From: the human T2T-CHM13v2.0 reference genome, Homo sapiens
DNA length: 64,000 nucleotides
Assembly (NCBI RefSeq): GCF_009914755.1
Contig: NC_060925.1
Reading direction: 5' to 3' (one strand)
Shown in pieces: positions 36,970-51,665 of the stretch. Numbering within the stretch: position 1 is the first letter of the stretch; each line of letters starts with the position of its first letter. Made by a program: the position numbers and the translations under genes. The notes beneath the pieces were generated by a model. That model did not search any database and was not told the DNA's origin. It saw only the letters and a list, made by a program, of their open reading frames with translations.

Positions 36970-37930
36970 AAAATGGGGGGGCGGGGGGCGCGGTGAGAAC
37001 AGAACCACTACAGGAATATACAAAGTTATTCGTTTCTGTTGAAAAGGACTCTTACCTGTTAGCCAGAAGAGAGAAATCCACCTCAGCAAGACCCTATCCA
37101 TCTTCCCCAACTTCCCAGCCGAATTACGGAGTGAGGAAAGTGGGAAATGGCTGGAACAGAAGGATCGCTGTCACCCCGCGGCAGCGGGCGGCGGCGGAGC
37201 GGCGGGCACCGGGCGTCCCTGGGCGCAGCGCCCGCCGGGCCGGCCGCGCAGGCGGGGCCGGGGGCTGGATCGCGCCGCCGGCTGAGCGCGCGCTGCCGCG
37301 GGCTTCCGGGGTCCGCGCAGCGCTCGGCGGCGCATCCGCATGCCCAGGCAGCGCGGCACGGGGCGAGCGTCTCCCCGCCGCAGAGCCCGCCGCGCGGGGG
37401 AGCTCGGCCGCCGCACCGCCTCCCGCGCCTCCGCCCCGCCGCCCGCTGCCGCGACTGCCAAAGTTTCTCGGTCACGTGCTGGCCCCCGGCGGCCCAAAGG
37501 TCAGCGTGGAGTGATTGAGGCCAAGCGGAGAGAGGGGGTCTCTGGGTGGCAGGCAGCGAGAGGCGCGGGGGAGGCCGCCCCGCGGGCCGCGCCGAGCGGG
37601 GAGCGACCATCGCGGCTTCTCCCAGGGACGCCCGCGCTCGGGAACCCGGGCGAGAACGCTGGCTGGGGACTCGAGCAGGGGAGCCTGTGTCTGCGGGCAG
37701 CCACAGCCAACCTGAACGGGGAGGGAGTGACAGCGGCGAGGGTGGGGGACGGCGGGGACTTGGCGTAACTTCTTACAGGACTTAACTAGCAAGTCCTCTA
37801 GGCTAGAATGTTCGCTTCTGCGGTACCCCCGCCCCTCCGTCTGGTTTCCTTTTTGACAGTGCAAGGAACCAGGCAAGAGGCTCCGCAGAATTGAAAAAGG
37901 TAGGCGGGAATCTCGCGTCATTACTTTTTC
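36970..37930. promoter_or_regulatory. CpG island / ILDR2 promoter and GC-rich 5'UTR (potentially bidirectional)
   Basis: Very high GC and CpG density immediately upstream of the ILDR2 ATG; GC boxes; E-box GTCACGTG at 37471-37478. Confidence 0.9.
37056..37101 (-). CDS. ILDR2: ILDR2 coding exon 1 (signal peptide MDRVLLRWISLFWLT, 46 nt, ends phase 1)
   Basis: Minus strand reads GGGAAG ATG GAT AGG GTC TTG CTG AGG TGG ATT TCT CTC TTC TGG CTA ACA G|GTAAGA. Strong Kozak, canonical donor, next to a CpG island, and joins exon 2 in frame (G+CC = Ala). Confidence 0.96.
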
Positions 37931-38689
37931 CTGTTAAAATATGAGGTAGAATAAGGGCATCCGGCCCTTTAACAGAAAATATGTAAAACCAGAATGAGAT
38001 AAATGATTATAACGGCTTAAATCCATCCAACACTTTATAGATTCCAGCACGCATTCACATGGATTATTCCTATTTGTCAGACGGATTTGTCTTGTGTCTC
38101 AAAATGTATGTGTTGAGAGAGAACTGAGAAATGTATGATTTGCTTAAGAAATATATTTATGAAGCCTCTACTAGGTGCTAAGAACTAAGGTTACAAAGTG
38201 GAATGAGATAGACTTCCTGCCCTTAGGAGCCTCATCTTGGGTCGAGGAAAGGGAGGAAGGTCAGACCATTAAAGACATGATACTTATTCCTAGTAAAACG
38301 GGGCAAGTGCAATAATGGAGACATAGAGAAAGTGCCTTGGGAACATAGAGGAAGGACTAAGTTAGTCGTGGGTGGGGAGGGGGCACCACGATAAAGGAGG
38401 GGTAACATCTGAGCTGGCATTTGCAGAAAGCACAAGATTTGAGCCATTCAAGGATCCCTGGTGGAAAGGGGGCAGGCGAGGGCATTCTGGGCAGAGGAAA
38501 GAGACATAGCAGAAAGGTCTCAAGTAGCATCTGAAAACAGAGTGGTGCCAGGCTGGAGGGGAGTTCCTGGAGCAGACAGACTCCACACCTAAGAGTGAAT
38601 GTGTACACAGACAGGGAGAATATGTATGTGAACATGTGAGAAATGGGAAGAATAGACCCTGGGCAGCTGTCTTTTATGGCTGCCTGACA

Positions 38690-39110
38690 TCTCAATTCCC
38701 TTCTTATTCTGAGAAATTCCAACTGCAGAAGCCAGAAAGTCTAGAGCCACCTCCCTGACCATCCCAGCTGGAATGCAGGCCCGGGCCCCTGGCATAGCCA
38801 GGCTGACCTCTCCCTCAGAGCTTTTTGATTCTGGAGCAAGTGGTGGATATAAGAAACAAGGACAGTGGAGAATTGATTTTGTCACTGAGGCAGCAGCAGC
38901 ATCCAGTGTACATGATCAGCTGTGGCAGAGGTCAAGCCACCAGGATGCTCCAAGGTGTGATTTTTGGCTGTGGTCTTGCAGGCTCTCTGGGTTCTAGCCT
39001 CTCTTCTACACTTGGCTCTTCACTTCCCCAGCAATTCTTTGAGCCACCCAATATCCTTTCATAAACTCTTTCTTTGCTTATTTTGGCCAGGATGATTTTT
39101 TCATGCTATG
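38690..39110. mobile_element. Old ERVL LTR (LTR16/LTR33-like)
   Basis: CAGGCTGACC...AGAGCTTTTTGATTCTGGAG...TGAGCCACCCAATATCCTTTCATAAA pattern. Confidence 0.45.
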
Positions 39111-39504
39111 TACTGCATGAGAGAAATTTGAGGACTATTTCCTTTCATATACAGAAAAATAAAAATATAGGAGGTACCTAACACTTGTGGGTTTCCTTTA
39201 GGTTCTAGGCAGAGTTCTACATGTTTAACAAACCTTCTCATTTAACCCTAAAGAGGGAACTTAGGCCCAGAGCATTTAACTAACTTCTCTAAGATCAGGC
39301 AACTAGTAAGTGGCAGAGCTAGGATTTGAATCTGACTCTAAAGCATATACTGTTTGCACCACAAAAAGAACATCTACACCAGAAGATTGAGATGATATAT
39401 TTGTATTATGCTGTGCCATTTACTGCATCTATGTGTGTGTGTCACAGTGCACAAAAGAGCTTGAATAGTGTTTATTATCTAAGCACACATAACAGTGGCA
39501 TTTT

Positions 39505-39791
39505 GGCCAGGTGCAGTGGCTCACACCTGTAATCTCAGCACTTCGGGAAGCTGAGGTGGGCGGATTGCTTGAGCTCAGGAATTTGACCAGCCTGAGTAAC
39601 ATGGTGAAACCCCATCTCTACAAAAAATACAAAAATTGCCAGGCGTGGTTGTACATACCTGTAGTCCCAGCTACTCTGGAGGCTAAGATGGGAGGACCAC
39701 TTGAACCTGGGAGGTTGAGGCTGCAGTGAGCTGTGACCACGCTACTGGACTCCAGCCTGGGTGACAGAGTGAGACCCTGTCTCAAAAAAAA
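39505..39791 (+). mobile_element. AluJ-like
   Basis: Full-length Alu; TSD core TGGCATTTT. Confidence 0.92.
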
Positions 39792-49903: not shown

Positions 49904-50208
49904 GGCCAGGTTCAGTGGTTTACGCCTGTAATCCCAGCACTCTGGGAGGCCTAGGCAGGCAGATCCTCGAGCCCAGAAGTGTGAGACCAGCCTGGGCAAC
50001 ATAGGGAGACCTCGTCTCTACAAAAAACAGAAAAATCACCAGGGCCTGGTGGTGTGCACCTGTAGCCCCAACTACTCGGGGGGCTGAGATGGGAGGTCCT
50101 ACTTGAGCCCAGGAGGTCTAGGCTGCAGTGAGCCGGGATCGTGCCACTGCACTCCAGCCTGGGTGACAGACTGAGACCCTGTCTAAAAAAAAAAAAAAAA
50201 AAAAAAAA
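49904..50208 (+). mobile_element. AluJ-like inserted in an old L1, about 0.9 kb upstream of the MAEL start
   Basis: Dimeric Alu with long poly(A). Confidence 0.92.
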
Positions 50209-51188
50209 ATTTAAAAGATAAAACCGTGTGATTACCTGAAAAGATCCAGAAATTTAGCAAATTTTCAACTGCCATTCTTGATTTTAAAACATATACATAC
50301 CCCATATATACATACACTTAGAAAGCTGACCCGAGAAAGGAATTTTCTCTGGGAAACGTAATTAGAAAACCGAGAGAACCAACTAGCACGATGTAAACTA
50401 GTATAAGAGATCAGCAGTGTGACTATATACACAGGACCAACACTAAAATCAATACCTTCTCTAGACATCAGTAGTAATCAATTAGAAAATATAATTTTTT
50501 AAAAGAAATTTTTCATAAAAACTCATATTGTTAATTAGGAATAAAATTGACAAAAAGGAAACAGTTTTATGAGGAAATCTATAAAACTTTAAGGATATTT
50601 TAAATCTCAACCTCTTCCTCTGTTTCCTTCTAACACTTATTTTTGAATGTACTTTTAAAAAATTCGAGTTTTGTTGCTTCACTGGTTTTTGTCATCCTCT
50701 CCCCTCATTCGATTGTAAACTTGAGGGCAAGGAAGACCTTGTCATGTTCCTCATACATGTTCCTCAACACTTTTCACAGTGCTTGGCATAAAGCTGGCTG
50801 GCCCTTTGTACCTGTAAAACGCGGAAACACCCGCAGCTCCTCTTTTTCTCTACCTACTTTGTCGCACATTACGCAATAATGTACAGAAATTGCTCCAGGC
50901 CTCCCACGTGACAATGCCTCCGCCTGCCACGCACCCAGCCAATCAGAGCACTTGGCACCTGCGACGGCGCTCTCCCCCCACCTCACCCGCAAGGCGGCAC
51001 GAGCCGGAATCTTCCAGTCTCAGGCTGTTTGTTCCCCCGCGGGGCAATGCGACTGCGCGTCGCTTCCTGATTGGCCGAGAGTTGCGGGCTGCGTGCGCAG
51101 GCGCCTACCTCTGTTACTTAGGGCGGGAGCCCGGCGAGGGCGCCGGTGCTTTGTTCTGTCTGAGGCCAGGAAGTTTGACCGCGCTGCC

Positions 51189-51320
51189 ATGCCGAACCGT
51201 AAGGCCAGCCGGAATGCTTACTATTTCTTCGTGCAGGAGAAGATCCCCGAACTACGGCGACGAGGCCTGCCTGTGGCTCGCGTTGCTGATGCCATCCCTT
51301 ACTGCTCCTCAGACTGGGCG
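51189..51320 (+). CDS. MAEL: MAEL coding exon 1 (MPNRKASRNAYYFFVQEKIPELRRRGLPVARVADAIPYCSSDWA; HMG box N-terminal part)
   Basis: GCC ATG CCG start; peptide lies within ORF 50952..51491; donor GCG|GTAAGG. Confidence 0.97.
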
Positions 51321-51572
51321 GTAAGGCTGGAGCGGAGTGAGAGGGCTGGGCAGGGCAGTTGGGCAAGCCGGAGGGTGAGGCGGGAGGGCAGAAGGCCTCG
51401 AGGAGGTCAGGCGGCTTGGCCCTGCCAGAGGAAGAGGAAGGCCCCCGTTTGTGGCCCTGGGCAAACCGACACCAGAACCACCTCCCTGTAATGCCCCAGC
51501 ATCTGCCTGCGGGCCCTAGAGCACGGGATCCTCACGGCTGTTTCTCTTCTTTGCTCCTTCAATCCCCAAAAG

Positions 51573-51665
51573 CTTCTGAGGGAGGAAGAAAAGGAGAAAT
51601 ACGCAGAAATGGCTCGAGAATGGAGGGCCGCTCAGGGAAAGGACCCTGGGCCCTCAGAGAAGCAG
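51573..51665 (+). CDS. MAEL: MAEL exon 2 (93 nt; LLREEEKEKYAEMAREWRAAQGKDPGPSEKQ; HMG box C-terminal part)
   Basis: Acceptor tccccaaaag|CTT, donor CAG|GTAAAG, phase 0-0, HMG helix-3 signature EKEKYxExA. Confidence 0.95.

What the first reader, a model, noticed from the sequence alone, without database searches (positions are those of the whole stretch)
37400..51665. Possible MAEL first exon fired from the ILDR2 CpG island, giving HMG-truncated MAEL outside the germline
Seen: ILDR2 and MAEL are divergent. On the plus strand of the ILDR2 island there is an ATG-free stretch ending in a donor-like AAG|GTCAGC (37499|37500). If spliced into MAEL exon 2 (51573), the first ATG is in-frame Met57 (GAAATGG, 51609, strong Kozak), which removes most of the HMG box and keeps the MAEL domain. 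I recall an annotated MAEL transcript starting near the ILDR2 promoter but cannot verify it here. Inference: this route would bypass the somatically silenced germline promoter and tie a piRNA-pathway protein to a tight-junction/immune-regulator promoter.
Basis: partly seen in the sequence, partly recalled or inferred. Interest (0 to 1): 0.7.

Follow-up and report, generated by a model that had tools for sequence, protein, structure and literature searches.

The report
MAEL short isoform from ILDR2 promoter
An annotated extra first exon of the sperm-cell gene MAEL starts 41 bases from the start of the opposite-facing ILDR2 gene and most likely gives the shortened MAEL already reported in tumours; it is likely switched on together with ILDR2, so MAEL levels in kidney cancer may largely report ILDR2 activity.

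Summary
Real, mostly known, with one correction. The donor at 37499|37500 and the in-frame strong-context Met57 at 51609 are there. RefSeq annotates exon 37415-37499, 41 bp from ILDR2's start. The product matches MAEL isoform 3 / MAEL-206 (378 aa, HMG-less), published as the main form in cancer lines and in kidney and brain tumours (PMC5354889, PMC10911358). Correction: the exon most likely splices not straight to exon 2 but to an acceptor inside the germline exon 1 (51237-51320). That model is 1701 nt against 1700 listed for MAEL-206; direct splicing gives 1617. A weak 12-codon upstream ORF then precedes Met57. The ILDR2 link was not stated in any paper I found, but a supplement supports it: ILDR2 ranks first of about 20,000 genes correlated with MAEL in clear-cell kidney cancer (rho 0.60; next 0.37), while six piRNA genes do not track MAEL. 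Best reading: divergent transcription from a shared CpG-island promoter, probably a low-level passenger in normal tissue (at most 9 TPM against 285 in testis). Testable spin-off: the MAEL immunotherapy biomarker may be a proxy for the checkpoint ligand ILDR2.

The parts
37100..37700 (.). CpG island shared by the ILDR2 start (-) and the upstream MAEL start (+); GC boxes, one ETS-like site (37303), one E-box (37473), no TATA (motif patterns recalled)
   Evidence: hub table
37056..37373 (-). ILDR2 exon 1; its start lies 41 bp from MAEL exon 1A
   Evidence: hub table
37415..37499 (+). MAEL upstream non-coding first exon (85 nt, no ATG), donor AAG|GTCAGC; inferred first exon of isoform 3 / MAEL-206
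   Evidence: hub table
51212..51236 (+). 3' splice site inside germline exon 1, formed by the HMG-box codons for Tyr-Tyr-Phe-Phe-Val-Gln (pyrimidine fraction 0.76, CAG|G)
51237..51320 (+). 84-nt internal exon (3' part of germline exon 1), inferred second exon of the upstream transcript
   Evidence: hub table; length match 1701 vs 1700; primer S1 at 51281 amplifies, siRNA target at 51205 fails
51289..51579 (+). weak-context upstream ATG (51289) opening a 12-codon ORF across the 51320/51573 junction; stop at 51577-51579, 29 nt before Met57
51573..51665 (+). MAEL exon 2; Met57 ATG at 51609-51611 (G at -3, G at +4) starts a 378-aa, 42.6-kDa protein
50800..51400 (+). germline MAEL promoter island with canonical exon 1 (51116-51320, Met1 at 51189); methylation assay target of PMC5768331 at 50820-50834
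   Evidence: hub table

Best explanation
The ILDR2 CpG island likely works as a two-way promoter: its plus-strand transcript carries the annotated 85-nt MAEL exon 37415-37499, most likely splices about 13.7 kb downstream to an acceptor inside the germline first exon (51237), and is likely translated from Met57 into the published 378-aa MAEL isoform 3, which lacks the HMG box and keeps the MAEL domain. Shown here: the exon, donor, internal acceptor, reading frames, lengths and domain limits. Published: a ~40-kDa HMG-defective isoform in cancer cells, MAEL-206 above 90% of MAEL in kidney and brain tumours, and its own promoter. Inferred: the exact junction; that ribosomes pass or re-start after the weak 12-codon upstream ORF; that ILDR2's promoter drives it; and that in normal tissue it is a low-level passenger of ILDR2 rather than a working piRNA pathway, with any tumour effect going through MAEL-domain contacts.
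For: The canonical model sums to 1737 nt, exactly the listed MAEL-202. Exon 1A + 51237-51320 + exon 2..end gives 1701 against 1700 for MAEL-206, 378 aa. The Ensembl gene span is 46,633 bp against 46,636 for 37415..84050 (hub table). [quoted passage not shown] HMG_box_2 spans 2-71 and Maelstrom 130-326; model helices are 10-24, 32-45 and 48-67, so Met57 cuts helix 3. In TCGA-KIRC, ILDR2 is first of about 20,000 genes (rho 0.598, q 3e-40; next 0.370); same-band TADA1 0.18, POGK -0.01, GPA33 -0.06, ALDH9A1 0.29. PIWIL1/2/4, TDRD9, DDX4 and GTSF1 lie between -0.15 and +0.10 (6 of 6 looked up). Methylation of the MAEL-202 promoter tracks MAEL in testicular but not kidney tumours. Normal levels: testis 284.6 TPM, placenta 9.3, heart 3.6, brain up to 2.7, kidney 1.6.
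Against: I saw no CAGE peak, junction read or transcript record; the junction rests on annotation rows plus a length match that is 1 nt off. PMC5354889 did not amplify from exon 1A in the parts read. The isoform shares in PMC10911358 come from GEPIA2, where isoforms differing only at the 5' end can be confused (my knowledge). The methylation link at the MAEL-206 promoter is weak (r -0.11, P 0.049). The ILDR2 correlation is one tumour type, bulk RNA, and could partly reflect a shared enhancer or cell type. In gastric cancer MAEL follows the germline promoter (r -0.675), and full-length cDNA was cloned from the H358 line. Against 'passenger': isoform 3 enhanced transformation and its knock-down killed cancer lines.
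Confidence: 0.78

Rival explanations
1. One reading: exon 1A splices directly to exon 2, so Met57 is the first ATG.
For: The splice is possible on paper and keeps Met57 first. It could exist as a minor form.
Against: It gives 1617 nt, 83 short of MAEL-206. It leaves the annotated 51237-51320 exon unexplained and lacks the S1 primer site that amplified in cells said to hold only isoform 3.
Confidence: 0.08
2. Somatic short MAEL comes mainly from leaky starts inside the germline exon 1 (between 51224 and 51281) or from the repeat-derived exon 47051-47182, and is mis-assigned to MAEL-206; the upstream exon is a rare transcript.
For: The primer and siRNA data only bracket the 5' end. Gastric MAEL follows germline-promoter methylation. 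Exon 47051-47182 is annotated and ends in an in-frame ATG.
Against: It does not explain why ILDR2 stands far above all other genes, or why the germline-promoter probes show no link to MAEL in kidney tumours (P>0.2).
Confidence: 0.1
3. The architecture is as described, but the HMG-less protein is a selected, conserved somatic isoform with its own job (RNA binding, transposon RNA turnover or protein degradation) in ILDR2-positive cells.
For: The MAEL domain is intact; it alone is needed for ILKAP binding; HMG-less fly Mael partly rescues; isoform 3 is active in transformation assays. 3 of 48 mammal-assigned database proteins start at Met57 and one bat model joins a foreign N-terminus exactly at Glu17.
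Against: Normal somatic levels are 30 to 180 times below testis; piRNA partners are not co-expressed; knockout mice are viable (as stated in PMC5354889). The database proteins are predictions whose first exons I could not see. Met57 and the acceptor lie in HMG-coding sequence, so their conservation need not reflect this use.
Confidence: 0.3
4. The upstream transcript also makes a near full-length protein with a swapped N-terminus, started at a CTG in exon 1A (or at ATG 36954) and joined in frame to residue 17.
For: Exon 1A has no stop in the MAEL frame and holds in-frame CTGs, that at 37479 with G at -3 and +4. The frame stays open for 186 codons, back to a strong-context ATG at 36954.
Against: An open 28-codon frame is expected in 92-95% of shuffles; 186 codons in about 3% for this frame and 7-10% for any frame, found after the fact. 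No homolog among 7989 scored candidates (weak evidence) and no Pfam match for the exon peptide. 36954 lies 461 nt upstream of the annotated start. The published band is ~40 kDa.
Confidence: 0.07

Closest known systems
Human MAEL isoform 3 / MAEL-206 (ENST00000622874, CCDS72975, UniProt E9JVC4; PMC5354889, PMC10911358)
   Same: 378 aa, HMG-defective, about 41 kDa, dominant in somatic tumours and cell lines, separate upstream promoter; transcript length within 1 nt of my model.
   Different: No difference in the molecule. Neither main text ties its promoter to ILDR2 (ILDR2 occurs 0 times in PMC10911358's main text; PMC5354889 was not among the 10 papers holding both names), and neither passage read mentions the internal acceptor or the upstream ORF.
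Bidirectional CpG-island promoters (definition in PMC1853124)
   Same: Head-to-head starts within 1 kb (41 bp), CpG island, GC boxes and an ETS-like site, co-expression.
   Different: One partner is an alternative non-coding first exon of a germline gene whose main promoter lies 13.7 kb away, and using it changes the protein's domain content.
Cancer/testis gene activation by promoter demethylation (MAEL in gastric and testicular tumours; PMC5768331, PMC10911358)
   Same: MAEL RNA and protein appear in somatic tumours.
   Different: That route uses the island at 50800-51400 and would give full-length MAEL; the upstream route does not track methylation there in kidney tumours.

Membership tests
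MAEL isoform 3 / MAEL-206 | 378-aa protein starting at Met57 | tested here: met
   434 - 56 = 378 aa, 42.6 kDa from the genomic exons; 378 aa listed
MAEL isoform 3 / MAEL-206 | 1700-nt transcript with the start codon in its third exon | tested here: met
   1701 nt with exons 37415-37499, 51237-51320, 51573-51665 onward; the control model gives exactly 1737
MAEL isoform 3 / MAEL-206 | junction reads or cDNA from 37499 into MAEL | not testable with these tools
   no RNA data or transcript records available; the hub table lists the exons but not which transcript joins them
Bidirectional promoter | divergent starts less than 1 kb apart | tested here: met
   37373 (-) and 37415 (+), hub table; definition
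Bidirectional promoter | CpG island over the shared region | tested here: met
   GC 75-81%, CpG o/e 0.92-1.10 over 37100-37699
Bidirectional promoter | co-expression of the pair | tested here: met
   published table: rho 0.598, rank 1 in TCGA-KIRC; one tumour type only
Bidirectional promoter | one element drives both directions (CAGE on both strands, dual reporter, CRISPRi) | not testable with these tools
   needs expression data or experiment
HMG-box protein (PF09011) | three-helix HMG box with the helix-1 arginines needed for nucleic-acid binding | tested here: not met
   the isoform keeps only residues 57-71 of a 2-71 domain; three Met57-started orthologs have no HMG match
Maelstrom domain protein (PF13017) | complete MAEL domain | tested here: met
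   residues 130-326 lie wholly after Met57; Met57-started orthologs score E 2e-35 to 2e-43
Active somatic piRNA pathway | co-expression with PIWI proteins and cofactors | tested here: not met
   6 of 6 genes looked up have rho between -0.15 and +0.10 in KIRC; other tissues not examined

The most novel reading that the evidence does not exclude
In kidney cancer MAEL RNA is a read-out of the ILDR2 promoter, so the published finding that MAEL-high tumours have a quiet immune environment and gain little from PD-(L)1 therapy is really due to ILDR2, a B7-like T-cell inhibitor that already has a blocking antibody. MAEL-206 would then be a ready marker of ILDR2-driven tumours.
Probability: 0.2. Interest if true: 0.62.

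Novelty: already known. Interest (0 to 1): 0.3.

Why it matters
The isoform is known, so the finding itself is not a discovery. Two practical points follow. First, most MAEL cancer studies express the full-length germline protein, while many tumours make the HMG-less form (stated in PMC10911358), so mechanisms needing the HMG box may not apply. Second, if the upstream start is ILDR2's own promoter, then somatic MAEL signals in expression, eQTL and methylation studies, and any CRISPRi or demethylation at this island, are confounded with ILDR2. The kidney-cancer immunotherapy association can be re-tested at once with ILDR2 as covariate.

Tried and rejected
Direct exon 1A to exon 2 splicing as the annotated route: rejected by length. 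The donor motif and ATG-free stretch as evidence in themselves: both common by chance (the dinucleotide shuffle could not test ATG absence because the exon has no AT step). A long N-terminal extension from ATG 36954: no homolog, marginal shuffle support. Regional copy number as the cause of the ILDR2 correlation: the 9 other 1q24.1 genes shown (10 of 12 rows seen) reach at most 0.29. Literature searches for a stated MAEL-ILDR2 promoter link found none: 10 papers with both names, listing and abstracts only, all GWAS or gene-list type; 30 of 1,912 listed; 1 paper; 21 papers; two read by passage; 25 of 45 listed. The gene list of the bidirectional-promoter catalogue PMC1853124 could not be checked (supplements held almost no text). 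A search for recent PIWI-MAEL-GTSF1 structure papers gave 1 unrelated listing. No mammalian genome other than the window's own was available, so conservation of exon 1A is untested. Earlier scan findings were not available.
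Full report
Observation. The plus strand reads AAG|GTCAGC at 37499|37500. Exon 2 starts at 51573 and holds GCAGAA-ATG-G at 51609, codon 57 of MAEL. 37415-37499 has no ATG. The region 37100-37699 is a strong CpG island (GC 75-81%, o/e 0.92-1.10). These motifs alone are not beyond chance: 146 of 3086 plus-strand GT sites in the window match a recalled donor consensus as well, and 72% of base shuffles of the exon lack ATG. An out-of-frame ATG lies at 37340. The hub's RefSeq table lists 37415-37499 as a MAEL exon, 41 bp from the ILDR2 start at 37373 on the other strand. 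The stretch is single-copy apart from one 53-nt GC-rich match elsewhere.

What it is. I fetched the rest of the gene from the same genome, placed exons 6-12 with a 434-aa primate protein that differs from the genomic translation at 5 positions, and summed lengths. The canonical model gives 1737 nt, exactly the length listed for MAEL-202 in Supplementary Table 6 of PMC10911358. That table lists MAEL-206 at 1700 nt, 378 aa, CCDS72975. Starting at Met57 gives 378 aa, 42.6 kDa. Exon 1A joined directly to exon 2 gives 1617 nt; exon 1A + 51237-51320 + exon 2 onward gives 1701; the four models with exon 47051-47182 give 1664, 1748, 1749 and 1833. So the annotated transcript most likely enters through an acceptor inside the germline first exon. 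That acceptor is made of the codons for Tyr-Tyr-Phe-Phe-Val-Gln of HMG helix 1 (pyrimidine fraction 0.76). [quoted passage not shown] On this route the first ATG is at 51289 in weak context (C at -3 and +4). It opens 12 codons and stops 29 nt before Met57, so Met57 would be reached by leaky scanning or re-initiation (inference from standard scanning rules).

The protein. Pfam HMG_box_2 spans 2-71 and Maelstrom 130-326. The human HMG box is PDB 2CTO. An AlphaFold model from 54 aligned sequences (mean pLDDT 62, low in linker and tail) has helices 10-24, 32-45 and 48-67, then a low-confidence linker 68-105. Met57 therefore leaves half of helix 3 and removes the helix-1 arginines that PMC4373776 (passages) found necessary for junction binding. 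The MAEL domain is whole. It is an RNA-binding module, inactive as a nuclease in Bombyx per PMC4408791 (passages); it is required for ILKAP binding (PMC5768331, passages); and HMG-less fly Mael partly rescues silencing (PMC3504300, passages).

Where it is expressed. PMC10911358 (passages, sections 12 and 18, supplementary files 6 and parts of 4 and 7) reports MAEL-206 above 90% of MAEL in kidney and brain tumours, equal to MAEL-202 in testicular tumours, with its own promoter. Methylation at the MAEL-202 promoter tracks MAEL in testicular but not kidney tumours. Normal levels are testis 284.6 TPM, placenta 9.3, heart 3.6, brain up to 2.7, kidney 1.6 (part 1 of 2 read). A review gives ILDR2 mRNA as high in brain and ovary and low in intestine, heart and kidney (PMC8509619, passages): a partial overlap only.

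The ILDR2 link. In Supplementary Table 8 of that paper (20,035 rows), ILDR2 is the top correlate of MAEL in TCGA-KIRC: rho 0.598, q 2.8e-40, next gene 0.370. The other 1q24.1 genes seen (10 of 12 rows) range from 0.29 to -0.06, which argues against copy number alone. Six piRNA genes range from -0.15 to +0.10, which argues against a reawakened germline programme. The main text never names ILDR2. My searches found no paper stating the shared promoter (the library lacks most subscription papers, and I saw most hits as listings only). PMC1802077 (passages) notes a different link, a retinal ILDR2 first exon beyond MAEL. PMC2464733 (passages) shows Mael also flanks mouse Ildr2, which has a CpG island at its 5' UTR.

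Results against. I saw no RNA reads or CAGE. The length match is 1 nt off. Methylation at the upstream promoter is only weakly linked to MAEL (r -0.11, P 0.049). The correlation is from one tumour type in bulk. Gastric cancers appear to use the germline promoter (r -0.675; assay target at 50820-50834), and full-length cDNA came from the H358 line. Function in tumours is supported by knock-down and transformation assays, so 'passenger' applies to normal tissue and is my inference.

Conservation. Of 195 database hits, 120 were listed; I assigned 48 to mammals by name or, for one, by similarity, leaving two unnamed fragments of high identity out of that group. By rough pattern matching, Gln16-Glu17 is present in 40 of the 48 (7 lack the segment, 1 differs) and Met57 in 37 of 48 (11 lack the segment); in the other 72 rows Met57 appears in 9 and Lys in 35. 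Three mammalian entries start at Met57 and one bat entry joins a foreign N-terminus at Glu17. These are gene predictions with unseen first exons, so they are hints only. Exon 1A itself could not be compared across species.

Mechanism, with basis. Shown: anatomy, frames, lengths, domain loss. Published: the isoform, its protein band, its somatic dominance, the correlation value. Inferred: CpG-island promoters fire in both directions (established knowledge; definition in PMC1853124, passages); here the plus-strand RNA has a donor 85 nt in, finds the first good acceptor inside MAEL's coding exon 1, and so becomes a MAEL mRNA that skips the germline promoter and Met1. I put this architecture at about 0.85-0.9, and the passenger reading for normal tissue at about 0.6-0.7.

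Verdict. Novelty: already known. What seems unremarked is that the isoform's promoter is ILDR2's, and that existing data already show the coupling. This makes one testable claim: the MAEL biomarker for immunotherapy benefit in kidney cancer may stand in for ILDR2. Interest 0.3.

Noticed in passing
window 47051-47182 (+): Annotated alternative MAEL exon that ends in an in-frame ATG directly before its donor (ATG|GTAAGG) and has an 11-codon upstream ORF. It lies in an old dispersed repeat (39 other matches listed at 65-84% identity) that NCBI's mask list does not cover; it looks like an old LINE-1 5' region (recalled, not tested). Spliced to 51237 it would replace only residues 1-16.
   Followed up: partly
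window 36942-37499 (+): The MAEL reading frame is open for 186 codons upstream of the donor, antisense to ILDR2 exon 1, with a strong-context ATG at 36954; about 3% of local shuffles do as well; no homolog found.
   Followed up: yes
window 37446-37481 (+): In-frame near-cognate starts in exon 1A (CTG 37446, 37455, 37479; GTG 37476); 37479 has G at -3 and +4 and would give a 425-aa protein that lacks only residues 1-16.
   Followed up: partly
beyond the window's right end (ILDR2, - strand): PMC1802077 reports a retinal ILDR2 (C1orf32) first exon about 58 kb upstream, so that MAEL lies inside ILDR2's first intron in that isoform.
   Followed up: no
window 53214-53313 (+): MAEL exon 3 has two annotated donors 9 nt apart (53304 and 53313), an in-frame 3-residue difference just before the MAEL domain (hub table).
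   Followed up: no
proteins P0004, P0006, P0010, P0022, P0024, P0027, P0034, P0043: Exon-2-skipped MAEL (loses HMG helix 3; human isoform 2, 403 aa) is predicted in many mammals, a second route to a broken HMG box.
   Followed up: no
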